Virus record (IMG/VR): IMGVR_UViG_3300045911_000602
Direction: 5' to 3' (one strand)
Length of the DNA stretch: 64,000 nucleotides
Source: a virus
Positions 9,601 to 30,641 of this stretch are shown piece by piece (the stretch's first letter is position 1; every line of letters starts with the position of its first letter). The notes beneath the pieces are model-generated. The model had not been told where the DNA came from, ran no database searches, and saw only the letters and a list, made by a program, of their open reading frames with translations. The translations under genes were made by a program, and so were the position numbers.

Positions 9601-9620
9601 TCAATTACTCCCGGTTGTTG

Positions 9621-9705
9621 TGGTGCTCGTGGCCAGACTCGAACTGGCATGGCATGTGCCGATGGATTTTAAGTCCATTGTGTCTACCAATTTCACCACA
9701 CGAGC
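9621..9705 (-). tRNA. tRNA-Leu(UAA), class II, CCA encoded
   Basis: Folded by hand. Acceptor GCUCGUG/CACGAGC; anticodon arm AUGGA-CUUAAAA-UCCAU; long variable arm; T-arm GCCAG-UUCGAGU-CUGGC; ACCA end. Confidence 0.9.
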
Positions 9706-9727
9706 ATTAAACTCAGACATAGATGAA

Positions 9728-9757
9728 ATTATAACAGACTACTTACCTATTTGTCAA
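9728..9757 (-). promoter_or_regulatory. sigma70-type promoter: TTGACA, 18-nt spacer, TATAAT, upstream of tRNA-Leu
   Basis: -10 at 9728-9733 and -35 at 9752-9757 on the minus strand. Confidence 0.5.
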
Positions 9758-9758
9758 C

Positions 9759-10592: not shown

Positions 10593-10621
10593 TGTTACTT
10601 TCCAAATAAGATAGTCCGTGA

Positions 10622-10650
10622 ATTATACGGACTATCTATCGTTTTATCAA
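10622..10650 (-). promoter_or_regulatory. sigma70-type promoter: TTGATA, 17-nt spacer, TATAAT, embedded in a 10-bp-arm inverted repeat (10610-10636)
   Basis: -10 at 10622-10627 and -35 at 10645-10650. The inverted repeat is GATAGTCCGT-N7-ACGGACTATC. Confidence 0.55.
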
Positions 10651-10664
10651 CGATTTTCAAAATT

Positions 10665-10977
10665 TGGTGGGCCCAGCAGGACTCGAACCTGCGACCCAGC
10701 GATTATTCGTTTACTTACTCGATTTTCTGTAAGTATGTGTTTGTGAATGATAAAACAGGACGAAATCAAACTGCATGTGATTATACGTTTCCTTCACAAA
10801 CACATGGTTGCCATCTTAGCAGCAGAACTTACATCCTCCATCTCGTAATTTACGAATTTCTCTTTTTGTCGCCATTGGCTCCCAAAGCATTCCTTTGGGA
10901 GCCATCTTAGACAAGAACACAGTTTATCATCTGTGTTCAAAAGAGTCGCTCGCTCTAACCATCTGAGCTATAGGCCC
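10665..10977 (-). tRNA. split tRNA gene: canonical 5' and 3' halves separated by about 236 nt inside the anticodon loop. The mature anticodon is most plausibly CAU (Ile2/Met-like) or CUU (Lys).
   Basis: 5' half: GGGCCUAUAGCUCAGAUGGUUAGAGCGAGCGACUC.. (10977 downward). 3' half: ..AAUAAUCGCUGGGUCGCAGGUUCGAGUCCUGCUGGGCCCACCA (ends at 10665). Acceptor, D, anticodon (AGCGA/UCGCU) and T stems all pair. Confidence 0.75.
10708..10943 (-). other. intervening sequence in the tRNA anticodon loop: an intron candidate or a small inserted element. Boundaries are good to +/-3 nt.
   Basis: Contains perfect helices of 8 bp (GAACACAG/CUGUGUUC), 11 bp (GGCUCCCAAAG/CUUUGGGAGCC), 13 bp (AUGUGUUUGUGAA/UUCACAAACACAU) and 6 bp (ACUUAC/GUAAGU). 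CUAAGAUGGC occurs twice. Confidence 0.6.
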
Positions 10978-11018
10978 AAATTTATCTAACAGTACTTATT
11001 TACTGCGACCTAACAATA

Positions 11019-11273
11019 CTATTCGTATTCCTCTTCATCTTCCGAAACGATTGGTTCTACCGAAGAAGCGTCACAAACAATATTGGTAATGAACATTGAA
11101 CACTTTTCGTCCCATACACCACCAACAAGCTTGACAATATAGACCAACCGTGCTTCATTACTTTCGTTGAGAACACAATGTCCAATAATTGTTCCAAGTG
11201 CATCTCCTGTAATCGTTGATTTTACTTTCATACCTACGGGAAGTGCACTAATCGTCATCGACTTAAATTCCAT
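11019..11273 (-). CDS. hypothetical protein (84 aa)
   Basis: ORF with its own promoter. Confidence 0.65.
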   Translation of the reverse strand: MEFKSMTISALPVGMKVKSTITGDALGTIIGHCVLNESNEARLVYIVKLVGGVWDEKCSMFITNIVCDASSVEPIVSEDEEEYE

Positions 11274-11313
11274 TGTTCGTCCTCAAAGATTAATTAATCA
11301 CGTCATGAAATAC

Positions 11314-11342
11314 ATTCTACAGAATTTGTTTGTTTCTGTCAA
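11314..11342 (-). promoter_or_regulatory. sigma70-type promoter: TTGACA, 17-nt spacer, TAGAAT
   Basis: -10 at 11314-11319 and -35 at 11337-11342 on the minus strand. Confidence 0.55.
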
Positions 11343-11599
11343 CTATTATTATTGTGCAGAAGAAGAGCAAGAAGAAGCATCGCGATTACTTCATCCATTT
11401 TGTTGAGAGGATCGACAGCATTGGCTATAATTGCTCCGTCAACAAAACTTTGAACATAAGAAGGTTGGAATAAACTATTGATTCCTTGATACAATTGGAT
11501 ACCCGACGCACCAAACAAAGACTGCGTGGGTGTGTTTCCGAGTGTTACCTTATCAACAACACCTGTTGATTTTTCAATCTGAAATTTCGTCATCTTCAT
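11339..11599 (-). CDS. hypothetical protein (86 aa), hydrophobic C-terminus
   Basis: ORF only. Confidence 0.5.
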   Translation of the reverse strand: MKMTKFQIEKSTGVVDKVTLGNTPTQSLFGASGIQLYQGINSLFQPSYVQSFVDGAIIANAVDPLNKMDEVIAMLLLALLLHNNNS

Positions 11600-11816
11600 T
11601 CGTTAGTTGATCGGAAGATTTCTTAAAGTGTATCGATTCAAAGATCTTATATGCTCTATCAGCACGAAGATTGTGCAAGCACATAATTGCTCGAAGAGAT
11701 TCAATCAGTTCCTTCTTGGAAGGGGTCTTCCTGTTAATTTGGTCAATCAACAGTTCAATATCGCTCGAAGTCCCCCATACTCCCACAAGTGCTGCTTCAA
11801 GTTCGTACTTGTCCAT
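11574..11816 (-). CDS. hypothetical protein (80 aa)
   Basis: ORF only. Confidence 0.55.
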   Translation of the reverse strand: MDKYELEAALVGVWGTSSDIELLIDQINRKTPSKKELIESLRAIMCLHNLRADRAYKIFESIHFKKSSDQLTNEDDEISD

Positions 11817-11818
11817 AA

Positions 11819-12136
11819 TTACACCTTCCTTCCCATTGTCTTAAAATCAGCTTCGTCGGTAATTACTTGATATGCTCCCTTATTACTGATTGGAGCAATT
11901 GTGTGCCTTACGGAACGAGCATCATTATCTCGTTTTTGTAAGATTGGGTCAACATATTTTTTTTCCTGCTTTTTGAATGCATTCCCAATACCTTCGCCAA
12001 CAGATATATGAGAAGCACGTTCCTTACGATATTCAGCCATTCTCATATTCGTTGGTGGTACATACACTTTTTTGGATACCTCCCGCTTAGGTTGCTTGCA
12101 GGAGCGGGGAGGTATCCATCCTCGAATAATGCTCAT
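11819..12136 (-). CDS. hypothetical protein (105 aa)
   Basis: ORF only. Confidence 0.6.
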   Translation of the reverse strand: MSIIRGWIPPRSCKQPKREVSKKVYVPPTNMRMAEYRKERASHISVGEGIGNAFKKQEKKYVDPILQKRDNDARSVRHTIAPISNKGAYQVITDEADFKTMGRKV

Positions 12137-12859: not shown

Positions 12860-13285
12860 TTAAAGGACAGGAATTTGTTCATGAGGCCATTTTTCTTTCA
12901 CAAGATGTGCTTGGAGATCTTGCACGGACAAAAACGTCTTTTTTATATCCCAATACGTCTTGTGCCAATATGGCTTCGTTGTTTTTAGTTGTCGCATTTC
13001 TTTCAGTCGACGAATTTCCACATCACTGAACTTTCGGTCAAACTGTGTTGCAGTGATATCAATCACATAATGTTTGTACGTCAAAAACACGTGGTTATGA
13101 TTGTAACGAATCTTGACATCATATCCACGTTTAACGCATTCCACAAACAACATCGAAGATGCGATTGCACAAAATCCTGTTAGATCTTTACAAAAGCAGG
13201 AATCGTATTCTTCATCGAGCTTACAAATAAGCTTTTCACGAATTTCGTGAGCGATTTGTTCGATGTGTTGAAGTGTTGTATTCAT
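12860..13285 (-). CDS. hypothetical protein (141 aa)
   Basis: ORF whose promoter cassette ends only 8 nt before the ATG. Confidence 0.7.
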   Translation of the reverse strand: MNTTLQHIEQIAHEIREKLICKLDEEYDSCFCKDLTGFCAIASSMLFVECVKRGYDVKIRYNHNHVFLTYKHYVIDITATQFDRKFSDVEIRRLKEMRQLKTTKPYWHKTYWDIKKTFLSVQDLQAHLVKEKWPHEQIPVL

Positions 13286-13293
13286 ATGTGAGC

Positions 13294-13321
13294 ATTATAC
13301 AGGAATTTAGTTAAAAGACAA
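13294..13321 (-). promoter_or_regulatory. promoter cassette: TTGTCT, 16-nt spacer, TATAAT
   Basis: -10 at 13294-13299 and -35 at 13316-13321. Same 40-bp cassette as the MORN genes. Confidence 0.6.
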
Positions 13322-13327
13322 CTGTTT

Positions 13328-13750
13328 TTAACTAAACTTCAGAATCATATGTAGTTTTTCTTCATCGCTCAATTTCAGCTTCTTCAACCACTCATCAAAA
13401 CTATACTCAACACCATTCAAGAACCATTCACGTGTCCCATCAGCGTTGATAACAGCAGGTCCATCCTCACGATGGAGTTCTCCGTTCACATACCAGAACT
13501 TAGAACCATCATCGAGAACAGATGCAGGTCCATCTTCGCGGTGATATTTCCCGTGCTTGTACCAACGTTCAACACCGTCAGCATAGATAACGGCAGGTCC
13601 ATTTTCGCGATGAAATTTTCCATTGAACAACCAATACTGAGAACCATCGCTGCGAATAAATGCAGGTCCATCTTCGCGATGGAGTTTTCTGTTCAGGTAC
13701 CAAAACTGATTGCCTTCAGAATCTACGATTTGTTGAATCTCAGCATTCAT
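13328..13750 (-). CDS. MORN-repeat protein, paralog 1 (4 repeats plus conserved C-terminal tail)
   Basis: 23-aa repeat W[YF]LNGK[LF]HREDGPA. Start moved to the conserved MNAEI ATG behind an AGGAAC RBS. Confidence 0.85.
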   Translation of the reverse strand: MNAEIQQIVDSEGNQFWYLNRKLHREDGPAFIRSDGSQYWLFNGKFHRENGPAVIYADGVERWYKHGKYHREDGPASVLDDGSKFWYVNGELHREDGPAVINADGTREWFLNGVEYSFDEWLKKLKLSDEEKLHMILKFS

Positions 13751-13785
13751 GGCATCTGTTCCTGTCTTGTCGTACAAGATTGCGC

Positions 13786-13813
13786 ATTATACAGGAATTT
13801 GGGTTAAAGACAA
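13786..13813 (-). promoter_or_regulatory. MORN promoter cassette: TTGTCT, 16-nt spacer, TATAAT
   Basis: -10 at 13786-13791 and -35 at 13808-13813. Confidence 0.6.
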
Positions 13814-13819
13814 CAGTTT

Positions 13820-14302
13820 TCAACCAAACTTGAGAATCAAGTGCAGCTTCTCTTCTTCACTAAAATTGCTTTTCTCTAACCATTGATTAAAGGAATATTT
13901 AACATCATCCAGGTACCATTCAACAGAACCGTCGGCACAAACAATGCCAGGTCCATCTTCGCGATGGAGCTTCCCATGCAGGTACCAAAGTTGTGTTCCA
14001 TCAGCTAAAATACTTGCAGGTCCATCTTCACGATGAAATTTTCCGTTCAAGTACCAAATTTGTGTCCCATTGCCATAGATGGCTGCAGGTCCATTAACAC
14101 GGTGGAGTTCTCCATGTAGATACCATAGCTCAACCCCACCCGGGTCGATAAAGGCAGGACCATCTTCTCGATGCCGCTTTCCATTTAGGTACCATTCTTC
14201 GGTACCGTCAGCATAGATAACAGCAGGTCCATCTTGCCGATGGAATTTTCCATTCAAGTACCAGAATTGATTCCCACCGATATTTACGACTCGTGGATTC
14301 AT
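13820..14302 (-). CDS. MORN-repeat protein, paralog 2 (5 repeats plus tail)
   Basis: Same repeat and the tail SFNQWLEKSNFSEEEKLHLILKFG. Confidence 0.85.
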   Translation of the reverse strand: MNPRVVNIGGNQFWYLNGKFHRQDGPAVIYADGTEEWYLNGKRHREDGPAFIDPGGVELWYLHGELHRVNGPAAIYGNGTQIWYLNGKFHREDGPASILADGTQLWYLHGKLHREDGPGIVCADGSVEWYLDDVKYSFNQWLEKSNFSEEEKLHLILKFG

Positions 14303-14346
14303 GGTCTTTATGGCATCTGTTCCTGTCTTGCTAAATTATGTTCAGC

Positions 14347-14374
14347 ATTATACAGGAATTTGGGTAAAAGACAA
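14347..14374 (-). promoter_or_regulatory. MORN promoter cassette: TTGTCT, 16-nt spacer, TATAAT
   Basis: -10 at 14347-14352 and -35 at 14369-14374. Confidence 0.6.
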
Positions 14375-14380
14375 CTGCTT

Positions 14381-15010
14381 TTAACCAAATTTTAGAATCA
14401 AGTGCAGCTTCTCTTCTTCACTAAAATTGCTTTTCTCTAACCATTGATTAAAGGAATATTTAACATCATCCAGGTACCATTCTTTGGAACCATTAGTATT
14501 AATAATAGCAGGTCCATCAACACGATGGTGTTTTCCGTTCAAGTACCAAAGTTGCGTCCCATCAGCATTGATAACAGCAGGTCCATCTTCGCGATGAAGC
14601 TTTCCGTTCAAGTACCAGAACTGAGAACCATTACTATAGATAGCAGCAGGTCCGTCTTCCCGATGAAGTTTTCCATTCAAGTACCAATACTTGGTACCAT
14701 TATTATGGATAACAGCAGGTCCATCTATACGATGTCGCTTTCCATACAAGTACCAATACTGAGAACCATCACTATCAATAACAGCAGGTCCATTTTCTCG
14801 ATGTCGTTGTCCATTTAGATACCATTCTTCGAAACCATCACTATCAATAACAGCAGGTCCATTTTCTCGATGAAGTTTTCCATTCAGGAACCATTGTTCA
14901 AAACCGTAGCTATAGATAGCTGCAGGTCCATCCTCACGATGAAGCTTTCCGTTCAAATACCAGAACTGATCGCCTTTCGAATTTACAACGTATTCAATCT
15001 CAGTGTTCAT
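14381..15010 (-). CDS. MORN-repeat protein, paralog 3 (7 repeats plus tail)
   Basis: Repeat consensus; MNTEIEYVV start. Confidence 0.85.
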   Translation of the reverse strand: MNTEIEYVVNSKGDQFWYLNGKLHREDGPAAIYSYGFEQWFLNGKLHRENGPAVIDSDGFEEWYLNGQRHRENGPAVIDSDGSQYWYLYGKRHRIDGPAVIHNNGTKYWYLNGKLHREDGPAAIYSNGSQFWYLNGKLHREDGPAVINADGTQLWYLNGKHHRVDGPAIINTNGSKEWYLDDVKYSFNQWLEKSNFSEEEKLHLILKFG

Positions 15011-15045
15011 GGCATCTGTTCCTGTCTTGCTAAATTATGTTCAGC

Positions 15046-15073
15046 ATTATACAGGAATTTGGGTAAAAGACAA
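15046..15073 (-). promoter_or_regulatory. MORN promoter cassette: TTGTCT, 16-nt spacer, TATAAT
   Basis: -10 at 15046-15051 and -35 at 15068-15073. Confidence 0.6.
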
Positions 15074-15079
15074 CTGCTT

Positions 15080-15778
15080 TTAAGCAAGCTTGAGAATTAA
15101 GTGCAGCTTCTCTTCTTCATTCAAGTTCAATTTCTGTAACCATTCATTGAATGAAAATTTTTTATTATTTAAAAACCACTCCCTAGAACCATCACTATAG
15201 ATGATTGCAGGTCCATTGTTGTGATGAAGTTTTCCATTCAAGTACCAATACTTGGTACCATCACTGTCAATAATGGCAGGTCCATCTACCCGATGTCGTT
15301 TTCCATTCAAGTACCATTCTTCGGTACCGTCAGCATAGATGACAGCAGGTCCATCTTCACGATGTTGTTTTCCATTCAAGTACCAATACTTGGTACCATT
15401 ATTATGGATAACTGCAGGTCCATCTTCTCGGTGGAGTTTTCCATTCAAGTACCAATACTTGGTACCATCACTGTCAATAATGGCAGGTCCATCTACCCGA
15501 TGTCGTTTTCCATTCAAGTACCATTCTTCAGAATCATCATTATACACAATCGCAGATCCATCTTCCCGATGAAGCTTTCCGTTCAAGTACCAGAACTGAG
15601 AACCATTGCTATAGATAATTGCAGGTCCATCTTCCCGATGGAGTTTTCCATTTAAATACCAGAACTGAGAACCATTGCTATAGATAGCAGCAGGTCCATC
15701 TTCCCGATGAAGATTTTTATTCGAGTACCAGTACTGATTGCCTTCAGAATCTACAACGCGTCGGATCTCAGTATTCAT
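15080..15778 (-). CDS. MORN-repeat protein, paralog 4 (8 repeats plus tail)
   Basis: Repeat consensus; MNTEIRRVV start. Confidence 0.85.
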   Translation of the reverse strand: MNTEIRRVVDSEGNQYWYSNKNLHREDGPAAIYSNGSQFWYLNGKLHREDGPAIIYSNGSQFWYLNGKLHREDGSAIVYNDDSEEWYLNGKRHRVDGPAIIDSDGTKYWYLNGKLHREDGPAVIHNNGTKYWYLNGKQHREDGPAVIYADGTEEWYLNGKRHRVDGPAIIDSDGTKYWYLNGKLHHNNGPAIIYSDGSREWFLNNKKFSFNEWLQKLNLNEEEKLHLILKLA

Positions 15779-15813
15779 GGCACCTGTCCCTGTCTTGCTA
15801 AATTATGTTCAGC

Positions 15814-15841
15814 ATTATACAGGGATCTCATTTAAAGAGAA
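15814..15841 (-). promoter_or_regulatory. MORN promoter cassette with a weaker -35: TTCTCT, 16-nt spacer, TATAAT
   Basis: -10 at 15814-15819 and -35 at 15836-15841. Confidence 0.5.
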
Positions 15842-16544
15842 GTGGGTTTTGACTAAACTTTTCAATCAAGTGTTGTTTTTGTTCTTTGCTGAGTTTCAAC
15901 TTCTTCAACCATTCATTAAAGGAAAGTTTAACATTATCCAAGTACCAATAAATGGATCCATCAGAGTTGATAACAGCAGGTCCATCTTCGCGGTGAAGGT
16001 TTCCATTCAGGTACCACACTTCGGAACCATCATTATACACAATCGCAGGTCCATCTTCGCGATGGAGTTTTCCATTCAAATACCAGAACTTAGAACCATT
16101 GCTATAGATAATTGCAGGTCCATCTTCCCGATGGAGTTTCCCGTTCAAGTACCATTCTTCGAAACGGTTTCTATAGACAACTGCAGGTCCATTTTCCCGA
16201 TGAAGCTTCCCGTGCAAGTACCAATACTTGGTACCATCACTATACACAATCGCAGGTCCATCTTCACGATGTCGTTGTCCATTCAAGTACCAGAACTTAG
16301 AACCATTGTCAATAATGGCAGGTCCATCTTCCCGATGAAGTTTTCCGTTCAAATACCAATGCTCATTACCGTTACGATACACAATCGCGGGTCCATCTTC
16401 ACGATGAAGTTCCCCGTTCAAGTACCAGATCTGAGAACCATTGCTATAGATAGCTGCAGGTCCATCCTCACGATGAAGTTTTCCATTCAAATACCAGTAC
16501 TGATCGCCTTTCGAATTTACAACGTATTCAATCTCAGTGTTCAT
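15828..16544 (-). CDS. MORN-repeat protein, paralog 5 (8 repeats, variant tail ending NPLLFK)
   Basis: Start moved to the conserved MNTEI ATG at 16544. Confidence 0.85.
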   Translation of the reverse strand: MNTEIEYVVNSKGDQYWYLNGKLHREDGPAAIYSNGSQIWYLNGELHREDGPAIVYRNGNEHWYLNGKLHREDGPAIIDNGSKFWYLNGQRHREDGPAIVYSDGTKYWYLHGKLHRENGPAVVYRNRFEEWYLNGKLHREDGPAIIYSNGSKFWYLNGKLHREDGPAIVYNDGSEVWYLNGNLHREDGPAVINSDGSIYWYLDNVKLSFNEWLKKLKLSKEQKQHLIEKFSQNPLLFK

Positions 16545-16579
16545 GGCATCTGTTCCTGTCTTAGCACACAAGATTGAGC

Positions 16580-16607
16580 ATTATACGGGGATTTGGGTAA
16601 AAGACAA
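16580..16607 (-). promoter_or_regulatory. MORN promoter cassette: TTGTCT, 16-nt spacer, TATAAT
   Basis: -10 at 16580-16585 and -35 at 16602-16607. Confidence 0.6.
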
Positions 16608-16645
16608 CTGCTTTACGATATCGTTTTCCGTTCGAGTATCAATAC

Positions 16646-16978
16646 TCAGCACCAATACTCAGTACCATCACTATGCACAATTGCAGGTCCATCTTCCCGA
16701 TGGAGCTTCCCGTTCACATACCAGAATTCTGAACCATCAGCATGGATAATAGCAGGTCCATCTTTCCGGTGGCGATGTCCATTCAGGTACCATTCTTTGG
16801 AACCATCAGCGTTGATAATAGCAGGTCCATCTTCACGGTGGTATCTCCCATGTTTGTACCATTCTTCAGTACCGTCAGCATAGATGACAGCAGGTCCATC
16901 TTCCCGATGGAGTTTTCCATTCAAGTACCAGAGTTGATTCCCATCGAAATTTACGATTCGTCGATTCGTGGTCTTCAT
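16646..16978 (-). pseudogene. 3'-truncated MORN paralog 6 (4 repeats, no C-terminal tail)
   Basis: The ORF stops inside a repeat, right after a 13-nt direct duplication CAATACTCAG(C/T)AC on the plus strand at about 16652-16677. The out-of-frame repeat remnant is fused directly to the next promoter cassette. Confidence 0.55.
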
Positions 16979-17013
16979 GGCATCTGTTCCTGTCTTGTTA
17001 AATTATGTTCAGC

Positions 17014-17041
17014 ATTATACAGGTATTTAGTTAAAAGACAA
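17014..17041 (-). promoter_or_regulatory. MORN promoter cassette: TTGTCT, 16-nt spacer, TATAAT
   Basis: -10 at 17014-17019 and -35 at 17036-17041. Confidence 0.6.
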
Positions 17042-17047
17042 CTGCTT

Positions 17048-17401
17048 TTAACTAAACTTCAGAATCATATGTAGTTTTTCTTCTTCGCTAATTTTCAGCT
17101 TTTTCAACCATTGATCAAAACTGTATTCAACACCATTCAAGAACCATTCACGTGTCCCATCAGCATTGATAACAGCAGGTCCATCCTCACGATGAAGGTT
17201 CCCATTCAAGTACCAGAACTGAGAACCATCATCGAGAATAGCTGCAGGTCCGTCTTCGCGATGAAATTTCCCGTGCTTGTACCAACGTTCAACACCGTCA
17301 GCATAGATAACAGCAGGTCCGTCTTCGCGATGAAATTTTCCATTGAACAACCAATATTGATTGCCTTCAGAATCCACAACTGATTGAATCTCAGTATTCA
17401 T
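17048..17401 (-). CDS. MORN-repeat protein, paralog 7 (3 repeats plus tail)
   Basis: Start moved to the MNTEIQ ATG at 17401. Confidence 0.85.
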   Translation of the reverse strand: MNTEIQSVVDSEGNQYWLFNGKFHREDGPAVIYADGVERWYKHGKFHREDGPAAILDDGSQFWYLNGNLHREDGPAVINADGTREWFLNGVEYSFDQWLKKLKISEEEKLHMILKFS

Positions 17402-17436
17402 GGCATCTGTTCCTGTCTTGTTAAGCAATGTTCAGC

Positions 17437-17464
17437 ATTATACAGGGATTTGGGTAAAAGACAA
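17437..17464 (-). promoter_or_regulatory. MORN promoter cassette: TTGTCT, 16-nt spacer, TATAAT
   Basis: -10 at 17437-17442 and -35 at 17459-17464. Confidence 0.6.
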
Positions 17465-17470
17465 CTGCTT

Positions 17471-18100
17471 TTAACCAAACTTGAGAATCAAGTGCAGCTT
17501 CTCTTCTTTATTAGATTTGCTTTTCTCTAACCACTCATTAAAAGAAAGTTTAATATCGTTTAAAAACCACAACTTAGTACCATCTCTATGAACAATTGCA
17601 GGTCCATCTTCACGATGTCGTTTTCCGTGCTTGTACCAACGTTCAACACCGTTATCATAGATAACAGCAGGTCCATCTTCTCGGTGGAGTTTTCCGTTCA
17701 AATACCATTCTTCGGAACCATTGCTGTAGATAACAGCAGGTCCATCTTCACGATGTCGTTTTCCGTGCTTGTACCAACGTACAACACCGTTAGTATAGAT
17801 AACAGCAGGTCCATCTTCTCGGTGGAGTTTTCCATTCAAGTACCATTCTTGGTGACCATCATTGTGAATAACAGCAGGTCCATCTTCACGATGTCGTTGT
17901 CCATTCAAGTACCAACGTTGAGAACCATTGGTATAGATAATGGCAGGTCCATCTTCTCGGTGGAGTTTTCCATTCAAGTACCATTCTTGGTGACCATCGT
18001 TGAGAATAATAGCAGGTCCATCTTCACGATGGAGGTTCCCATTCAAGTACCAATATTGGTTTCCTACAGAATCCACAACTGATTGAATCTTAGCATTCAT
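17471..18100 (-). CDS. MORN-repeat protein, paralog 8 (7 repeats plus tail)
   Basis: Start moved to the MNAKIQ ATG at 18100. Confidence 0.85.
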   Translation of the reverse strand: MNAKIQSVVDSVGNQYWYLNGNLHREDGPAIILNDGHQEWYLNGKLHREDGPAIIYTNGSQRWYLNGQRHREDGPAVIHNDGHQEWYLNGKLHREDGPAVIYTNGVVRWYKHGKRHREDGPAVIYSNGSEEWYLNGKLHREDGPAVIYDNGVERWYKHGKRHREDGPAIVHRDGTKLWFLNDIKLSFNEWLEKSKSNKEEKLHLILKFG

Positions 18101-18135
18101 GGCATCTGTTCCTGTCTTGTTAAGCAATGTTGAGC

Positions 18136-18163
18136 ATTATACAGGGATTTGGGTAAAAGACAA
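18136..18163 (-). promoter_or_regulatory. MORN promoter cassette: TTGTCT, 16-nt spacer, TATAAT
   Basis: -10 at 18136-18141 and -35 at 18158-18163. Confidence 0.6.
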
Positions 18164-18186
18164 CTGCTTTTAACCAAATTACAATT

Positions 18187-18672
18187 TCAAACATCATCGT
18201 TAACTTTTCTTACTTCACGAATTGTAATTGATTTTTTTGAAATTCGGTTTGCCTTCCTGGCAGCCATACCATGCAAACTCCTTAGAGCCTTTGAAGAAGC
18301 CTCATATGTGCGGCGATAATACTTACCGTCTTGGCGACTTACGTAATATGCGAATACTTCAAACTTCTGTGGCTTTTCAAGAAAAAAGAATTCGGAAATC
18401 AAAGCTTCCAGATGTTCTTCGAATTCTTCGTTCGTATTAAACGCAGCCCGATCGCTTTCCAACCACTTTTCTACATCATCATGCGTCCTATACCCAATGC
18501 AACCATCCTGCAGAGCAATCGAAAGCTTCATCACGTCCCACTTATCGAAAATCATGATTGCTTCCATGTGATTCAGCATCCAATAAATATCTTCGTCCAC
18601 TGGATTGGATTTTGTTACTTCAGCGACCTTTGTCTTGAAAAACTCGAAGGTATATTTCATTGATTCGCTCAT
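18187..18672 (-). CDS. hypothetical protein (161 aa), non-MORN gene inside the array
   Basis: ORF with its own promoter. Confidence 0.7.
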   Translation of the reverse strand: MSESMKYTFEFFKTKVAEVTKSNPVDEDIYWMLNHMEAIMIFDKWDVMKLSIALQDGCIGYRTHDDVEKWLESDRAAFNTNEEFEEHLEALISEFFFLEKPQKFEVFAYYVSRQDGKYYRRTYEASSKALRSLHGMAARKANRISKKSITIREVRKVNDDV

Positions 18673-18693
18673 TTATTAATGAATTGAAACCGA

Positions 18694-18722
18694 ATTATAC
18701 ATATCCAACACTATAATGTCAA
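18694..18722 (-). promoter_or_regulatory. sigma70-type promoter: TTGACA, 17-nt spacer, TATAAT
   Basis: -10 at 18694-18699 and -35 at 18717-18722. Confidence 0.6.
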
Positions 18723-18729
18723 CAACTTT

Positions 18730-18805
18730 TGGCGCCCCTGGCAGGAATCGAACCCACACCTAAACGGGTAGAAGCCGTTCGCTCTTTCCATTAAGCTACA
18801 GGGGC
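18730..18805 (-). tRNA. tRNA-Arg(UCU), CCA encoded
   Basis: Folded by hand. Acceptor GCCCCUG/CAGGGGC; D stem GCUU/GAGC; anticodon arm AACGG-CUUCUAC-CCGUU; T-arm GUGGG-UUCGAUU-CCUGC. Confidence 0.9.
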
Positions 18806-18831
18806 GAAAAACTACATCAAACAATACCTCC

Positions 18832-18859
18832 ACTATACAGGAATTTGGGTAAATAACAA
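18832..18859 (-). promoter_or_regulatory. promoter cassette variant: TTGTTA, 16-nt spacer, TATAGT, upstream of tRNA-Arg
   Basis: -10 at 18832-18837 and -35 at 18854-18859. Confidence 0.5.
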
Positions 18860-18886
18860 CAGCTTTCAACCAAACTTCGGAATCAA

Positions 18887-19561
18887 TTAAAGTTTTTGTT
18901 TTTCGCTCAATTTTATTTGTTCCGACCATTGATCGAAAGTGAAATAGTCACCATCCAAGAACCAAAATTTACTAGTAACATCAAAAAAAACTGCAGGTCC
19001 ATCTTTCCGATGGAGTTTCCCATTCAAGTACCAGAACTTAAAACCGTTGCTATAGATAACGGCAGGTCCATCTTCACGATGAAGTTTTCCGTTCAAATAC
19101 CAATACTTAGAACCATCACTGCGAATAGCTGCAGGTCCATCTTTCCGATGGAGTTTCCCATTCAAGTACCATTCTTCGAGACCATTATTGCGAATAATGG
19201 CAGGTCCATCTTCACGATGTCGTTGTCCATTCAAGTACCATTCTTGTGTCCAATTAACGCAATTAACAGCGGGTCCATTTTCTCGATGGAGTTTTCCATT
19301 CAAGTACCAGTACTCTGAACCATCGCTATAAACAAGTGCAGGTCCATCCTCACGATGGTACTTTCCGTTCAGGAACCATTCTTGAAAACCATCACTATGC
19401 ACAATGGCAGGTCCGTCTTCCCGATGGAGCTTCCCGTCCTTATACCAACGTTCGGAACCATCAGCACCAATAATAGCAGGTCCATCTTCTCGGTGGAGAA
19501 CATCATTCATGTACCAGAACTGATTCCCTTTACGATCTACGCGTTGAATTCCAGCATTCAT
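18887..19561 (-). CDS. MORN-repeat protein, paralog 9 (8 repeats, slightly shortened tail)
   Basis: Start moved to the MNAGIQ ATG at 19561. Confidence 0.85.
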   Translation of the reverse strand: MNAGIQRVDRKGNQFWYMNDVLHREDGPAIIGADGSERWYKDGKLHREDGPAIVHSDGFQEWFLNGKYHREDGPALVYSDGSEYWYLNGKLHRENGPAVNCVNWTQEWYLNGQRHREDGPAIIRNNGLEEWYLNGKLHRKDGPAAIRSDGSKYWYLNGKLHREDGPAVIYSNGFKFWYLNGKLHRKDGPAVFFDVTSKFWFLDGDYFTFDQWSEQIKLSEKQKL

Positions 19562-19596
19562 GTGACATACTCCTGTCTTAGCACACAATATTGAGC

Positions 19597-19624
19597 ATTG
19601 TACAGGGATTTGAGTAAAAAACAA
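19597..19624 (-). promoter_or_regulatory. MORN promoter cassette variant: TTGTTT, 16-nt spacer, TACAAT
   Basis: -10 at 19597-19602 and -35 at 19619-19624. Confidence 0.5.
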
Positions 19625-19630
19625 CTGCTT

Positions 19631-20044
19631 TTAACCAAATTTCAGAATCAAGTGCAGCTTTTCTTCTTCGCTCAATTTCAGTTGTTCCAACCATTCGTTG
19701 AAGGCGAAATTGTCATCATGCAAGAACCAAAGTTTAGTACCATCGGCGTTAAAATAAGCAGGCCCATCTTCGCGGTGAAGCTCCCCATGCAGGTACCAAT
19801 ACTCTGAACCATCCATATAGGTAACAGCAGGTCCATTTTCACGATGGAGCTTTCCATGTTTATACCAATGTTTAGAACCACTAGCACCGATGACAGCAGG
19901 TCCGTCTTCGCGATGAAATTTTCCATTGAAGTACCATTCTTCAGGACCATGGCTGTAGATAGCGGCAGGTCCATCTTCTCGGTGGAGTTTTCCATTCAAG
20001 TACCAGAACTGATTTCCGTGGGCATCTACAATATGTCGTCTCAT
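19631..20044 (-). CDS. MORN-repeat protein, paralog 10 (4 repeats plus tail)
   Basis: Start moved to the MRRHIV ATG at 20044, which has an AGGTGA RBS. Confidence 0.8.
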   Translation of the reverse strand: MRRHIVDAHGNQFWYLNGKLHREDGPAAIYSHGPEEWYFNGKFHREDGPAVIGASGSKHWYKHGKLHRENGPAVTYMDGSEYWYLHGELHREDGPAYFNADGTKLWFLHDDNFAFNEWLEQLKLSEEEKLHLILKFG

Positions 20045-20083
20045 GGTATTCGTATCACCTGTTCTTGTCATACAACGTTGAGC

Positions 20084-20111
20084 ATTATAGAGGAATTTGG
20101 CTAAATAACAA
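20084..20111 (-). promoter_or_regulatory. MORN promoter cassette variant: TTGTTA, 16-nt spacer, TATAAT
   Basis: -10 at 20084-20089 and -35 at 20106-20111. Confidence 0.55.
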
Positions 20112-20117
20112 CCGCTT

Positions 20118-20738
20118 TTAACCAAATTTCAGAATCAAGTGCAGTTTTTCCTCTTCGCTCAATTTTATTTGTTCCAACCATTCTTTGAAAGTGAACTCAA
20201 CATCATTCAAGTACCATTCTTTAGTACCAGTAGCACTGATAATAGCAGGTCCATCTTCCCGGTGTCGTTTTCCGTTCAAATACCAGAACTGAGAACCATT
20301 GCTATGGATAACAGCAGGTCCATCTTCCCGGTGTCGTTTTCCGTTCACATACCAGAACTTAGAACCATTGCTATAGATAACAGCGGGTCCATCTTCGCGA
20401 TGAAATTTTCCATTCAAGTACCATTCTTCAGTACCATTACTATCAATAATGGCAGGTCCATCTTCCCGGTGTCGCTTTCCATTCAGGAACCATTCTACGG
20501 AACCCTCAGCAAAAACAACCGCAGGTCCATCTTCACGATGAAGTTTTCCGTGTTTGTACCAATATTTAGGACCATCAACATTGATAACTGCAGGTCCATC
20601 TTCACGGTGAAGTTTTCCGTTGAAGTACCATTCTTCGGAACCATCACTATGCACAATGGCAGGTCCATCTTCCCGGTGTCGTTTTCCGTTCAAGTACCAG
20701 AACTGATTCCCCTTATGATCTACAACACGTCGTCTCAT
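20118..20738 (-). CDS. MORN-repeat protein, paralog 11 (7 repeats plus tail)
   Basis: Start moved to the MRRRVV ATG at 20738. Confidence 0.8.
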   Translation of the reverse strand: MRRRVVDHKGNQFWYLNGKRHREDGPAIVHSDGSEEWYFNGKLHREDGPAVINVDGPKYWYKHGKLHREDGPAVVFAEGSVEWFLNGKRHREDGPAIIDSNGTEEWYLNGKFHREDGPAVIYSNGSKFWYVNGKRHREDGPAVIHSNGSQFWYLNGKRHREDGPAIISATGTKEWYLNDVEFTFKEWLEQIKLSEEEKLHLILKFG

Positions 20739-20777
20739 GGTATTCATATCACCTGTTCTTGTCATACAATGTTGAGC

Positions 20778-20805
20778 ATTATAGAGGAATTTGGCTAAAT
20801 AACAA
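20778..20805 (-). promoter_or_regulatory. MORN promoter cassette variant: TTGTTA, 16-nt spacer, TATAAT
   Basis: -10 at 20778-20783 and -35 at 20800-20805. Confidence 0.55.
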
Positions 20806-21089
20806 CCGCTTTTAACCCCCCATACAAATCATCTGTTGATCAATTACCCAATTTCACATACAATGCTGCTCATCTACAGAGAGCACCATAAGAGTGCAAC
20901 TGGATGCTAAGAGCCAAACCATGGCGGAGGCAGGGGGGAGCTATGGTTCTAATCCAAACCTGGACAAAATAACCATTTTCAAAAAAGTCAACAAAAAAAT
21001 AATGTTGTCATAATGTTTGTTTGTATTTTTCCAAATCTCGTTTTCTTGTATTATGGACACCATAAAATGAAGGATATAACAGCTTTCGC

Positions 21090-21156
21090 ATAAATCAATA
21101 AGTTAACAATATTTGTTAACAAACTTCCTTAACATACTCCCTATAGGTGCCTATAC
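21090..21156. repeat. 67-bp direct repeat, copy A, containing the 19-bp palindrome GTTAACAATATTTGTTAAC (21102-21120)
   Basis: Identical to 21209-21275; period 119 bp. Confidence 0.9.
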
Positions 21157-21208
21157 ATATCTACAACAAAATCAACAAATACATTAACATAAAAAACACA
21201 TGTTCTTT

Positions 21209-21275
21209 ATAAATCAATAAGTTAACAATATTTGTTAACAAACTTCCTTAACATACTCCCTATAGGTGCCTATAC
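21209..21275. repeat. 67-bp direct repeat, copy B (palindrome at 21221-21239)
   Basis: Identical to 21090-21156. Confidence 0.9.
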
Positions 21276-21299
21276 TTAATAGAAGCTTACACTATTTCA

Positions 21300-21449
21300 T
21301 TAATTAGTAGACAATGCGAATAACTTTTTTACTGCTGCTACAGTATAATCTGCTGTATAAAGACTTATTAACAATGTCATGCTAACAATGACAAGAACAA
21401 AAGTAAAAACAACTTCCCACGGGCTAAATAAACGAATATTTTTCATCAT
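21300..21449 (-). CDS. small membrane protein candidate (49 aa)
   Basis: Hand-translated: MMKNIRLFSPWEVVFTFVLVIVSMTLLISLYTADYTVAAVKKLFALSTN. An AAGGAT RBS sits 5 nt upstream. Confidence 0.35.
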   Translation of the reverse strand: MMKNIRLFSPWEVVFTFVLVIVSMTLLISLYTADYTVAAVKKLFALSTN

Positions 21450-21562
21450 GAAAATCCTTTAAAAATAAAGTGTTGATATAAAAATATTATTATGATTGTT
21501 CGTCTGAAGGTATGAAGGTATGAACAGCAATATGATTATCAAAACATAAATTTTATATTGAT

Positions 21563-21756
21563 ATTTACTAGTAAACAGTTTTATAAGTATGTTCTCGCAC
21601 GGGAAAGCTGTTATTTACTAGTAAACATTACAGAAATATTCTCGCACGGGAAATTATTTATATTGTTGTTATTATTTATTTTAAATATTTTCCGTGCGAA
21701 AAAATTGTTGGTTTGTTGCACGGGAAATTTAATTTTTCCTTCAAAACCCGCACGAA
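21563..21756. promoter_or_regulatory. iteron cluster. The 12-15-nt palindromic box ATTTACTAGTAAACA occurs twice, 50 bp apart. The CGCACGG(G)AAA core occurs 4-5 times, one copy inverted.
   Basis: Palindromic boxes at 21563-21577 and 21613-21627. Cores at 21592-21606, 21639-21653, 21688-21701 (inverted), 21716-21727 and 21748-21756 (degenerate). Confidence 0.6.
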
Positions 21757-22012
21757 TTCACGAAATTTCGCCCAATATTAATCACAATACCAAAGAAACG
21801 TCACAGCCTAGCAATGAATTTTCTATTGATAAATCAATAGTTTATAAGAACTTTTTCAATGTTTTTTATCAATATTTTCATTACTAACCTGATTAGGTTG
21901 ATCAATATATTTTTAAGGGTTTTTACACTATACATTGTATTTATTATAGTTGTTAGTCTACGGAAATTTAATTTGTAAATAGTTGTAACCATACGGTAAA
22001 GGAAAAGATTTT

Positions 22013-30636: not shown

Positions 30637-30641
30637 GATTT

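What the first reader, a model, noticed from the sequence alone, without database searches (positions are those of the whole stretch)
13328..20765. Array of 11 tandem MORN-repeat paralogs (about 65 repeat units), each with its own promoter
In 7.4 kb, eleven consecutive minus-strand genes encode proteins built almost entirely from a 23-aa unit, W[YF]LNGK[LRF]HREDGPA.

- Copy number ranges from 3 to 8 units per gene.
- Each protein ends in a conserved non-repeat tail, [WF][YF]L[DN][DN]V.[YL]SF[NDE][EQ]WL.K..[LF]S.EEKLH[LM]ILKF[GS].
- Each gene is preceded by the same cassette of about 70 bp holding the promoter, RBS and start (TTGTCT-N16-TATAAT ... AGGAAC ... ATG AAT ACN GAA).
- The array is interrupted only by one unrelated gene and tRNA-Arg(UCU), and both use the same promoter type.
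- The variable repeat number, near-identical 69-bp DNA units and one truncated copy indicate ongoing unequal recombination.

MORN-type repeats are generally lipid- or membrane-associating modules. Their role in a phage, and the reason for maintaining about 11 individually transcribed versions, is not something I can derive from known biology. Dosage, host-surface or membrane targeting, and decoy or anti-defence functions are all open.
Basis: partly seen in the sequence, partly recalled or inferred. Interest (0 to 1): 0.7.

Follow-up and report, generated by a model that had tools for sequence, protein, structure and literature searches.

The report
Phage array of MORN-like repeat genes
A large uncultivated phage carries eleven side-by-side genes, each with its own promoter, for small soluble proteins built from a 23-residue beta-hairpin repeat related in fold to MORN repeats. 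The family is widespread in phages, giant viruses and mobile elements but has never been studied, and it most likely makes a set of protein-binding factors used early in infection.

Summary
The core observation holds. Eleven minus-strand genes (13328-20765) carry 65 in-register 23-aa units, 3-8 per gene, and a promoter cassette recurs 12 times where 0 are expected by chance.

Three sub-claims fail:
- Only 8 of 11 genes keep the intact tail.
- The interrupting 161-aa gene uses a different, perfect consensus promoter.
- The 69-bp units are not near-identical: mean DNA identity is 72% and dS is about 1.

The array is therefore old and under purifying selection (pN/pS 0.17 in the core, 0.24 in the tail), with only a few recent recombination events.

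"MORN" is right for the fold only. The AlphaFold model (pLDDT 97) matches MORN1, junctophilin and MORN4. Pfam MORN is not matched even at E<=10, MORN_2 is below threshold, and no solved structure is related by sequence.

The unit (W-Y-x-N-G-x-x-H-R-x-D-G-P-A) occurs in more than 7,700 metagenomic proteins. Tandem arrays of such genes are common in viral contigs, and one lies in a Janthinobacterium mobile island. The tail defines an unannotated subfamily.

Best reading (inferred): an early, host-RNA-polymerase-transcribed repertoire of diversified protein binders for host takeover or counter-defence. No experiment or paper addresses the function. I rate it a moderately interesting new variant of a known kind.

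The parts
13328..13750 (-). g1: 4 repeat units plus intact tail (140 aa from the ATG at 13750). Close paralog of g7.
13786..13813 (-). Promoter cassette of g1 (TTGTCT-16-TATAAT).
13820..14302 (-). g2: 5 units plus tail. The ancestral ATG is mutated to ATA, so the start lies 9 nt downstream. Its tail DNA is identical to that of g3 over 89 nt.
14347..14374 (-). Promoter cassette of g2.
14381..15010 (-). g3: 7 units plus tail (209 aa). This is the protein modelled with AF2 (pLDDT 97.2).
15046..15073 (-). Promoter cassette of g3.
15080..15778 (-). g4: 8 units plus tail (ending LKLA). It contains a 95-nt exact internal duplication 207 nt apart.
15814..15841 (-). Promoter of g4. The -10 is intact. 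The -35 half is degenerate (TTCTCT) because the extended tail of g5 runs over it.
15828..16544 (-). g5: 8 units (one of 22 aa) with a diverged, extended tail (KQHLIEKFSQNPLLFK).
16580..16607 (-). Promoter cassette of g5.
16646..16978 (-). g6: 4 units, truncated (ends ...EYWC*), no tail. A remnant of a fifth unit is fused to the next cassette.
17014..17041 (-). Promoter cassette of g6 (variant spacer TTTTAACTAAATACC).
17048..17401 (-). g7: 3 units plus tail (117 aa), the shortest complete paralog.
17437..17464 (-). Promoter cassette of g7.
17471..18100 (-). g8: 7 units plus tail (209 aa).
18136..18163 (-). Promoter cassette of g8. It is preceded by an 11-nt remnant (AATTTGGTTAA) of a lost paralog's tail.
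18187..18672 (-). Unrelated 161-aa ORF with no family hit. Together with the tRNA it replaced the body of a former paralog.
18694..18722 (-). Separate perfect consensus promoter TTGACA-17-TATAAT for the 161-aa ORF. This is not the cassette.
18730..18805 (-). tRNA-Arg (anticodon UCU).
18832..18859 (-). Cassette copy (TTGTTA-16-TATAGT) now placed in front of the tRNA.
18887..19561 (-). g9: 8 units. A premature stop lies 7 codons before the normal end of the tail, and the remnant LIPKFG* follows. The JGI gene caller did not call this gene.
19597..19624 (-). Weakened promoter cassette of g9 (TTGTTT-16-TACAAT).
19631..20044 (-). g10: 4 units plus tail. An alternative in-frame ATG lies at 20071.
20084..20111 (-). 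Promoter cassette of g10 (variant TTGTTA-16-TATAAT).
20118..20747 (-). g11: 7 units plus tail. In-frame ATGs lie at 20765, 20747 and 20738. It is the first gene of the array in the direction of transcription.
20778..20805 (-). Promoter cassette of g11.
13294..13321 (-). Thirteenth cassette copy, outside the stated range. It drives the unrelated 141-aa ORF 12860-13285, whose ATG lies only 8 nt after the -10 hexamer.

Best explanation
**Shown**
- The locus is a birth-and-death multigene family in a jumbo phage.
- The duplicated unit is one gene plus its sigma-70-type promoter and ribosome-binding site.
- Inside genes, 69-bp units have been gained and lost in register.
- Each product is a small (13-28 kDa), soluble protein. 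It is predicted to fold into an elongated single sheet of beta-hairpins of MORN-like fold.
- The fold has a conserved N-terminal cap strand and a conserved C-terminal cap of a half-repeat plus two helices.
- The framework residues W1, N4, G5, H8, R9, D11, G12, P13, A14 and G20 are nearly invariant. Positions 3, 6, 7, 15, 17, 18 and 21-23 carry most of the amino-acid differences.
- The paralogs are old, diverged and kept by purifying selection.

**Inferred**
- The genes are transcribed by the host RNA polymerase, probably early. No terminators lie between them, so transcripts add up along the array.
- The proteins act as a repertoire of protein-binding modules of different length and surface. 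They probably bind, sequester or redirect host proteins during takeover.
- The most specific version is neutralisation of host defence effectors or toxins. This would resemble MORN_2/YwqK-type immunity proteins and the repeat-protein multigene families of giant viruses.
- The shared tail would give all paralogs one common property, such as capping, dimerisation or docking.
For: **Anatomy.** There are 65 units in 11 genes. Cassettes are aligned.

**Selection**
- Unit pS is 0.56 and pN 0.21.
- Core codons give pN/pS 0.083/0.50; variable codons give 0.41/0.65.
- The tail gives 0.17/0.71.
- The promoter -35..-10 segment is 86-88% identical between copies, against 72% for coding units.

**Fold**
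- The AF2 model has pLDDT 97.2 and pTM 0.88.
- Foldseek ranks TbMORN1 6t68 first (E 1.7e-8), followed by TgMORN1, PfMORN1, junctophilins and MORN4/Myo3a.
- MORN repeats are protein-protein interaction and dimerisation modules (PMC7725318).

**Properties.** The proteins are soluble and non-membrane. Paralogs are 57-72% identical to g3 and differ in length, which points to diversification rather than dosage.

**Transcription.** The window holds 20 near-consensus sigma-70 sites, 15 of them on the coding strand, against 4.0 in shuffles. No minus-strand terminator-like site lies inside the array.

**Link to mobile elements and conflict**
- The family is found in phages, giant viruses and an island in Janthinobacterium that also carries an orphan methylase, a relaxase-like gene and an AAA_13 gene.
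- Some homologues are named YwqK antitoxin by IMG.
- Tandem arrays recur in many viral contigs.
Against: - There is no direct evidence of expression, timing, binding partner or phenotype.
- No anti-defence or other function is reported for this family.
- pN/pS stays below 1 even at the variable positions, so an arms race is not demonstrated. Saturation of synonymous sites limits this test.
- No toxin or defence gene is linked to the array in the window, and all neighbours lack family hits.
- Three copies are damaged (g2 start, g6, g9), so not every copy is needed.
Confidence: 0.4

Rival explanations
1. Self-assembling scaffold. The paralogs homo- or hetero-oligomerise through their common tail into filaments or lattices inside the infected cell or the virion, with repeat number setting length.
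For: - MORN1 proteins, the best structural matches, dimerise tail-to-tail through their C-termini and form higher-order assemblies (PMC7725318).
- All complete paralogs share one conserved C-terminal module under purifying selection.
- Lengths vary in discrete steps.
Against: - The promoters are of the host sigma-70 type in a region of small ORFs and tRNAs, not a structural module.
- No structural genes lie nearby.
- The tail-bearing subfamily is mostly made of very small proteins with 1-3 units.
- No oligomer prediction could be run.
Confidence: 0.15
2. Gene dosage. The array exists to make a large amount of one activity early in infection, and sequence differences between copies are neutral drift.
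For: - Eleven promoters lie in 7.4 kb without terminators.
- All copies share the same framework, N-cap and tail.
Against: - Copies differ by 28-43% in sequence and more than two-fold in length.
- Drift would not keep pN/pS at 0.17-0.24 in every copy separately.
- Comparable arrays of unequal paralogs recur in unrelated viral contigs.
Confidence: 0.12
3. Membrane or lipid targeting. The repeats anchor the proteins, or partners, to the host membrane.
For: - This is the historical annotation of MORN repeats.
- TbMORN1 interacts with individual phospholipids (PMC7725318 abstract).
- Junctophilins, which tether membranes, are among the structural matches.
Against: - TbMORN1 did not bind membranes or vesicles in vivo or in vitro.
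- The paralogs are hydrophilic and mildly acidic to neutral (pI 5.1-7.3), without hydrophobic or clearly basic segments.
- Canonical MORN sequence features are absent.
Confidence: 0.07
4. Non-functional expansion or assembly artefact. The array is a selfish or decaying repeat, or arose from mis-assembly of repeats.
For: - Three copies are damaged.
- Only two, possibly non-independent, contig records carry the array.
- A Logan contig breaks at its edge.
- Repeat proteins are known to be hard to assemble (PMC9238414).
Against: - Eight ORFs are intact, with purifying selection on units and tail and saturated synonymous sites.
- The promoters are conserved.
- Exact repeats are at most 95 nt.
- The array is identical over 20.6 kb in the two records.
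- The family and its arrays are widespread.
Confidence: 0.05

Closest known systems
MORN1 of Trypanosoma brucei, Toxoplasma gondii and Plasmodium falciparum (PDB 6t68, 6t69, 6t4d), and other MORN-repeat proteins such as junctophilins and MORN4
   Same: - The period is 23 residues, with one beta-hairpin per unit and an elongated single beta-sheet.
- These are the best structural matches to the model (E 1.7e-8 to 1e-4, probability 1.0).
- The proteins consist almost only of repeats.
   Different: - No sequence-level relation was found. Pfam PF02493 is not matched even at E<=10, and a profile of the family finds no solved structure.
- The signature differs: W-Y-x-N-G-K-x-H-R-E-D-G-P-A here, against the GxG / G10 / YEGEW features of the structure-based MORN definition.
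- TM-scores are only 0.44-0.48, so twist or curvature differs.
- This family has a helical C-terminal cap.
MORN_2 (PF07661) / YwqK-type antitoxin or immunity proteins (COG name used by IMG)
   Same: - This is the nearest annotated sequence family: 4 of 10 paralogs score 17-27 bits.
- Some metagenomic homologues are named "antitoxin component YwqK".
- They are small, soluble, repeat-only proteins that act by binding another protein (my own knowledge of YwqK, not tested here).
   Different: - Scores are below the gathering cut-off of 29.6 bits.
- No toxin gene is linked to the array.
- The array lies in a phage, with one promoter per gene.
- The tail module is absent from that family's model.
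MORN-repeat multigene families of giant viruses (pandoraviruses, mimiviruses, marseilleviruses)
   Same: - These are also large viral genomes with many duplicated repeat-protein genes of unknown function.
- A morn-repeat orthologous group is highly duplicated in pandoraviruses (PMC13390436; PMC6418002).
- Proteins of Powai lake megavirus, mimivirus R871, Marseillevirus and Orpheovirus are among the closest viral structural matches, at 30-40% identity.
   Different: - Those are eukaryotic viruses, and their proteins are often fused to F-box, RING or kinase domains.
- Here the genes are short, unfused and tightly tandem, each has a bacterial promoter, and they share a specific tail.
Pfam DUF6745 (PF20530) and NCBIfam phage_BC1881 (NF033495)
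   Same: - These are the only curated models that any paralog passes. DUF6745 scores up to 49 bits against a cut-off of 27, and BC1881 scores 30-35 bits against 27.
   Different: - Only about 20-50 of the 206 DUF6745 positions, and 8-10 of the 45 BC1881 positions, are matched. That amounts to one repeat unit embedded in those models.
- Neither family has a known function, and no paper mentions DUF6745.

Membership tests
Canonical MORN repeat (Pfam PF02493; structure-based definition of Sajko et al. 2020) | Repeat period of 23 residues | tested here: met
   64 of 65 units are exactly 23 aa apart.
Canonical MORN repeat (Pfam PF02493; structure-based definition of Sajko et al. 2020) | Sequence signature (GxG, G at position 10, YEGEW), i.e. 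a match to PF02493 | tested here: not met
   PF02493 is absent from the hits of 10 paralogs at E<=0.01 and of g5 and g11 at E<=10. The unit consensus WYLNGKLHREDGPA.I...G... lacks YEGEW.
Canonical MORN repeat (Pfam PF02493; structure-based definition of Sajko et al. 2020) | One beta-hairpin per repeat, forming an elongated antiparallel sheet | tested here: met
   This rests on a predicted structure only. The AF2 model has pLDDT 97.2 with regular strand pairs in every unit. The top Foldseek PDB hits are MORN1, junctophilins and MORN4.
Canonical MORN repeat (Pfam PF02493; structure-based definition of Sajko et al. 2020) | Detectable sequence homology to proteins with solved MORN structures | tested here: not met
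   phmmer with g3 and hmmsearch with a 45-sequence profile find no MORN protein in the PDB at E<=1 and E<=10 respectively.
MORN_2 / YwqK antitoxin family (PF07661) | Score above the Pfam gathering threshold (29.6 bits) | tested here: not met
   The best scores are 17.3-27.2 bits, in 4 of 11 paralogs, and no single stretch passes.
MORN_2 / YwqK antitoxin family (PF07661) | Genetic linkage to a cognate toxin gene | tested here: not met
   No neighbouring ORF has a toxin or any other family hit. The array is flanked by unknown small ORFs and tRNAs.
DUF6745 (PF20530) | Whole-protein score above gathering (27 bits) | tested here: met
   7 of 11 paralogs score above the cut-off, at 28.4-49.2 bits.
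DUF6745 (PF20530) | Match over the 206-position domain | tested here: not met
   The best stretches cover only profile positions of about 31-98, mostly 63-83. This is one repeat unit.
NCBIfam phage_BC1881 (NF033495) | Score above cut-off over the 45-position model | tested here: inconclusive
   3 of 4 tested paralogs score 30.5-35.4 bits against a cut-off of 27. Only 8-10 model positions are matched, and no stretch passes on its own.
Undescribed 'repeat + SF[DN]EWL...EEK..L.LK[FYW]G tail' subfamily (defined here) | One or more HRxDGPA units followed by the C-terminal half-repeat and two-helix tail | tested here: met
   A tail-only profile finds 67 cluster representatives (E<=1e-3) among 1.84 billion. 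Nearly all are small proteins with 1-5 units and the tail at the C-terminus. Tail-bearing paralogs are also tandem in L085 and L088-L091.
Sigma-70-type promoter | -35 and -10 hexamers at 16-18 nt spacing upstream of each gene, conserved beyond neutral expectation | tested here: met
   The sites score 10/12 matches with a perfect TATAAT in 10 of the 13 copies. There are 12 copies against 0 expected. The copies are 86-88% identical, whereas synonymous sites differ at 56%. Activity itself is not testable with these tools.

The most novel reading that the evidence does not exclude
Tandem arrays of HRxDGPA-type MORN-like paralogs are a widespread and so far unrecognised class of counter-defence or host-takeover locus. 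They occur in mobile elements: jumbo phages, giant viruses and integrative islands. Each array would encode a diversified repertoire of small solenoid binders that neutralise host immune effectors or toxins. Array size and unit number would be tuned by unequal recombination. This would be the prokaryotic-virus counterpart of the repeat-protein multigene families of giant viruses.
Probability: 0.22. Interest if true: 0.75.

Novelty: new variant of a known kind. Interest (0 to 1): 0.45.

Why it matters
This repeat family is very abundant in metagenomes: more than 7,700 proteins were found in one capped search. It sits in phages, giant viruses and mobile islands, usually as several adjacent paralogs. 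Yet it is annotated only as "hypothetical", DUF6745 or, loosely, MORN/YwqK, and no searchable paper treats it.

Marine long-read data suggest that MORN-type repeat genes are strongly under-represented in assembled viral genomes (PMC9238414), so their real weight in phage genomes is probably underestimated.

This window offers a clean case for experiments. It has eleven separately promoted paralogs of graded length with a common tail, and a confident structural model. If the proteins turn out to be binders of host defence or housekeeping proteins, that would open a large uncharted family of phage-host interaction factors. It would also provide a natural, modular binder scaffold. If they are ordinary structural or dispensable proteins, the finding is a well-documented example of birth-and-death evolution of a phage gene family.

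Tried and rejected
**Searches that found nothing or only remote matches**
1. Near-identity DNA searches of the array and of window 1-12000 in 50,697 phage records found no match. The phage has no close cultured relative.
2. tblastn of g3 found only Celeribacter phage P12053L, Agrobacterium phage Atu_ph07 and one uncultured phage. In the one Atu_ph07 region examined (12 kb around the best hit) the homologues are small genes annotated as hypothetical.
3. NCBIfam and PHROGs gave only sub-domain matches to families of unknown function.
4. PDB sequence searches, single and profile, found nothing.
5. Literature searches for DUF6745, for MORN with jumbo phage and for MORN with anti-defence found nothing. 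Two apparent hits were the word "morning" or a bare domain list.
6. The exact promoter cassette is absent from IMG/VR.
7. The metagenome scan with the tail found only 5 distant loci and not the source contig. Copy-number polymorphism in close relatives therefore could not be assessed.
8. Pfam on ten flanking ORFs gave no hits.

**Ideas considered and dropped**
1. DNA mimic: pI of 5.1-7.3 is not acidic enough.
2. A hairpin explaining the fixed GGA codon: units with R at position 7 cannot form the extended stem yet keep GGA.
3. Universal codon-level selection on G-P: other arrays fix other codons.
4. Terminators between genes: the terminator-like hits are all on the non-coding strand and come from the repeated codons.
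5. The long plus-strand ORFs antisense to the array (for example 15738-16577): these are by-products of the repeat.
6. Diversity-generating retroelement targeting and a T4-like capsid-targeting N-terminus: I considered these from memory only and did not test them. No template/variable repeat pair or LxE cleavage motif is evident.

Full report
**1. What is in the sequence**

Between 13328 and 20765 the minus strand carries eleven ORFs. Their products are made almost entirely of a 23-residue unit.
- A motif parse finds 65 units, spaced exactly 23 residues apart except for one 22-residue unit in g5.
- The counts per gene, g1 to g11, are 4, 5, 7, 8, 8, 4, 3, 7, 8, 4 and 7.
- W1, H8 and G12 are invariant. 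R9, P13 and A14 occur in 63 of 64 units, and G5, D11 and G20 are nearly fixed.
- Positions 15, 17, 18 and 21-23 are the most variable.
- No unit occurs elsewhere in the 64-kb window.

Every protein starts with a short conserved N-terminus, of the type MNTEIQxVVDSEGNQ[FY].

Eight proteins end in a half-repeat followed by SF[ND]EWL...EEKLH[LM]ILKF[GS]. The other three are damaged or diverged:
- g6 breaks off after four units.
- g9 has a stop seven codons before the normal end, with the remnant LIPKFG* still readable.
- g5 has a diverged, longer tail that runs over the -35 region of the next promoter.

The array is interrupted by tRNA-Arg(UCU) and an unrelated 161-aa ORF.

**2. The promoter cassette**

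The motif TTTACCCAAATYCCTGTATAAT occurs 12 times at up to 3 mismatches. All copies are on the minus strand between 13294 and 20799, against 0.00 expected. Including g4's copy, whose -35 half is degenerate (found), there are 13 cassettes.
- Ten sit in front of repeat genes.
- g4 keeps only the -10 half.
- One, with TATAGT, sits in front of the tRNA.

The 161-aa ORF does not use the cassette. It has its own perfect TTGACA-17-TATAAT promoter.

The alignment of the junctions shows that the duplicated unit runs from the last codons of one gene to the start codon of the next. It takes in the promoter and an AGGA ribosome-binding site.

The alignment also shows that the segment tRNA + consensus promoter + 161-aa ORF replaced the body of a former paralog. 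That paralog's promoter (18832-18859) and its last 11 nt (AATTTGGTTAA, before 18163) remain.

The -35..-10 segment is 86-88% identical between copies. Coding units average 72%, and synonymous sites differ at 56%. The promoters are therefore conserved beyond neutral expectation.

Near-consensus sigma-70 sites are enriched in the whole window: 20 against 4.0 in shuffles, with 15 on the coding strand. No terminator-like site lies on the coding strand inside the array.

That the genes are transcribed by host polymerase, and early, is an inference from these facts.

**3. Age and dynamics**

- Mean pairwise identity of units is 71.6%. Only 2 of 2016 pairs reach 95%.
- The longest exact repeats are 95 nt (an internal duplication three units apart in g4), 89 nt (the tails of g2 and g3) and 75 nt.
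- Nei-Gojobori counts over all unit pairs give pS 0.56 (dS about 1.0) and pN 0.21.
- Framework codons give pN/pS 0.083/0.50, variable codons 0.41/0.65, and the tail 0.17/0.71.

The family is therefore old and maintained by purifying selection. It shows occasional recent duplication (g4 internal; the g1/g7 pair) and occasional decay (g2 start codon, g6, g9). This is birth-and-death evolution rather than a freshly expanding repeat.

With synonymous sites saturated, positive selection at the variable positions can be neither shown nor excluded.

Paralogs are 57-72% identical to g3 and differ more than two-fold in length. This argues against simple dosage.

**4. Is the array real?**

- The window equals JGI metagenome 3300045921 contig Ga0484948_001100 over the 20,630 bp compared.
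- The array genes occur on that contig and on one 0.2-1 Mb contig only.
- The JGI contig's coordinates coincide with window coordinates, so the two records may stem from the same data.
- Logan assemblies of other runs contain the flanks. One contig ends 70 bp from the array, as expected for k-mer assemblies at repeats.
- Exact repeats of at most 95 nt are resolvable with ordinary paired reads. I therefore regard collapse or expansion as unlikely, but it is untested.

**5. What the proteins are**

Sequence searches:
- Pfam does not recognise canonical MORN (PF02493), even at E<=10.
- MORN_2 reaches 17-27 bits against a cut-off of 29.6.
- DUF6745 passes its cut-off in seven of eleven paralogs. 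It does so through about 20-50 of its 206 positions, which amounts to one embedded unit.
- NCBIfam and PHROGs give only similar fragmentary hits to families of unknown function.
- No solved structure is related by sequence, by single-sequence or profile search.

Structure:
- An AlphaFold2 model of g3, built with a 45-sequence alignment, is very confident (pLDDT 97.2, pTM 0.88).
- It shows a regular series of beta-hairpins, an N-terminal cap strand, a terminal hairpin and two C-terminal helices at residues 187-193 and 198-208.
- Foldseek against the PDB ranks MORN1 of T. brucei, T. gondii and P. falciparum first (E 1.7e-8 to 8e-7). Junctophilins, MORN4 and radial-spoke MORN proteins follow.
- TM-scores are only about 0.45.

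The structure-based MORN definition requires GxG, G10 and YEGEW (PMC7725318). These motifs are not present here.

The family is thus MORN-like in fold and period but a distinct sequence variant.

The proteins are hydrophilic, with pI 5.1-7.3 and no hydrophobic segment.

**6. Distribution**

- A capped search found 7,702 homologues at E<=1e-5. Nearly all are unnamed, and a few are called "antitoxin component YwqK" by IMG.
- The closest viral structures are from uncultured Caudovirales, Powai lake megavirus, mimivirus R871, Marseillevirus, Orpheovirus, Atu_ph07 and Celeribacter phage P12053L.
- Among cultured phages, only three records match g3.

Tandem arrays are common in uncultivated viral contigs. 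Of the 79 IMG/VR loci retrieved, 37 hold four or more repeat ORFs:
- 15 ORFs with 53 units in L022.
- 12 ORFs in a 455-kb contig (L056).
- 11 ORFs in L012 (211 kb) and in L016.

Some of these loci carry clear phage genes.

A tail-only profile finds 67 cluster representatives among 1.84 billion proteins. Almost all are small proteins with 1-5 units ending in Y.F[DN]EWL...[IL]S.EEK..L.LKYG. Such tail-bearing genes are again tandem in L088-L091. They are also tandem in L085, a relative from the sister sample whose two paralogs, of about 9-10 units and 1 unit, have best local matches 58-72% identical to the window's paralogs.

An isolate genome, Janthinobacterium sp. RB2P8, has seven overlapping paralogs in tandem plus one more about 5 kb upstream. 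They carry their own lineage-specific tail. They lie between an orphan DNA methylase, a weak relaxase-like ORF and an AAA_13 gene, which is a mobile-island context.

The present array is therefore one more example of a recurrent but undescribed arrangement. What is particular here is the promoter in front of every gene. The cassette is absent from IMG/VR.

**7. Genome context**

The window belongs to a large phage.
- It encodes T4-type RNA ligase 1, a helicase and an NAD-dependent ligase. The ligase is closest, at 41-45% identity, to jumbo phages Xoo-sp13, Phosso, Atu_ph07 and XacN1.
- It also carries nine tRNAs, PhoH, PRPP synthetase, peptide deformylase and others.
- The array is the first block of a leftward gene series. 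It begins at an AT-rich divergent region (about 20800-22000) where GC skew changes sign.
- The immediate neighbours tested have no family hit.

**8. Most likely mechanism**

Shown:
- The locus is a conserved, individually promoted family of soluble MORN-like solenoids.
- The solenoids differ in length and in a defined subset of positions.
- They share both caps.

Inferred:
- MORN repeats act as protein-protein interaction and dimerisation modules rather than membrane anchors.
- The family is tied to viruses and mobile elements.
- The nearest annotated relatives are immunity or antitoxin proteins.

From these three points I infer that the array supplies a repertoire of binders. These would be made from the onset of infection and would engage host proteins, possibly defence effectors or toxins. 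The tail would provide a common capping, dimerisation or docking function.

I give this 0.4. The descriptive part alone I would put near 0.9.

Rivals and their weights:
- Self-assembling scaffold: 0.15.
- Dosage: 0.12.
- Membrane targeting: 0.07.
- Junk or artefact: 0.05.

**9. Verdict**

The MORN label holds for the fold, not for family membership. The membrane premise is weak. The function is unknown and is not addressed in the searchable literature.

This is a new variant of a known kind: MORN-like repeat multigene families of large viruses. It is of moderate interest, which would rise if a counter-defence role were shown.

Noticed in passing
window 13289-20830, every gene junction (e.g. 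17432-17482, 14342-14392): The last codons plus stop of each gene (AAATTTGGTTAAAA) and the -35/spacer of the next promoter (TTTTACCCAAATT) form an imperfect inverted repeat around the loop GCAGTTGTC. The RNA fold is -8.9 to -11.8 kcal/mol with z -1.9 to -3.5. 82% of cells are paired, against 56-59% when the partner is slid by one column. One G-C to A-U double change is seen. The shuffle control is not significant and no U-run follows. It could be an operator palindrome, an RNA 3' hairpin or a by-product.
   Followed up: partly
window 13328-20765 (58 sites); related loci L012, L071, L005: Inside the units, codons for G12 and P13 are almost fixed: GGA in 62 of 64 and CCT in 60 of 64, against background use of 24% and 36%. 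The neighbouring R9 and A14 are spread over four codons. As a result the 8-mer GGACCTGC occurs 58 times in the array and once elsewhere. Other phages' arrays fix different codons (GGT CCC, GGC CCG). This looks like lineage-specific homogenisation and is not explained.
   Followed up: partly
window 12860-13321: The unrelated 141-aa ORF is driven by a copy of the array's promoter, but its ATG lies only 8 nt after the -10 hexamer. The mRNA would therefore be leaderless or nearly so.
   Followed up: no
window 60405-60432 (-), upstream of the AAA ATPase gene 59255-60346: A promoter-like site outside the array (TTGACT-16-TACAAT) shares the array's spacer almost exactly (TTTTACCTAAATTTCT). This hints that the spacer is a feature of a promoter class of this phage, not only a relic of duplication.
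   Followed up: partly
window 33963-35216 (+) and 44046-45299 (+): Two 417-aa ORFs on the minority strand are 92% identical and lie 10 kb apart. Neither has a Pfam or PHROG hit. They are probably a repeated mobile gene; motifs such as GIDMNPN and AAYSS recall RuvC-type TnpB-like nucleases, which is my reading and was not tested.
   Followed up: partly
window 36631-37875 (+): A TnpB/OrfB_IS605-family gene (HTH_OrfB_IS605, OrfB_IS605 and Cas12f1-like TNB domains) lies inside the phage genome.
   Followed up: no
window 60907-61515 (-): A 202-aa ORF carries a precomputed Pfam hit to PF26128 (Gad2, an anti-Gabija protein family) in the contig look-up. The local Pfam copy gave no hit. It lies next to a MoxR-like AAA ATPase and a DUF2201 VWA/metallopeptidase pair.
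   Followed up: no
window 9621-52266: Nine tRNA genes lie on the minus strand: Leu-UAA, Arg-UCU, Arg-UCG, Ser-CGA, Leu-CAA, Ser-UGA, Gly-UCC, Trp-CCA and Gly-GCC. The array's arginines use CGN codons almost exclusively, so the embedded tRNA-Arg(UCU) does not serve the array.
   Followed up: partly
cassettes of g1, g3, g5, g6, g7 and g8 (e.g. window 15005-15020): The start region reads AGATGCCATGAA. An upstream out-of-frame ATG opens a two-codon mini-ORF (ATG CCA TGA) whose stop overlaps the main ATG. The motif is intact in six cassettes. g2 has lost the overlapping main ATG (ATA), and g4 reads GTG in place of the upstream ATG.
   Followed up: no
L093 (Janthinobacterium sp. RB2P8, NZ_JBNYXO010000009.1 27304-43465), 1563-10982: An isolate bacterial genome holds seven overlapping HRxDGPA-repeat ORFs in tandem (7596-10982) plus one more at 1563-2465. 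Six of the eight end in a shared tail of their own (...LSEEEFNxxLMKKxLNxKLxxxLKPKPTQKRSKI). Nearby are an orphan N6/N4 DNA methylase, a weak relaxase-like ORF and an AAA_13 protein.
   Followed up: partly
window 20800-22000: An AT-rich (GC 0.345) region with few ORFs lies upstream of the array, between divergently oriented genes, and GC skew switches sign here. It may be a divergent early-promoter region or an origin or terminus.
   Followed up: no
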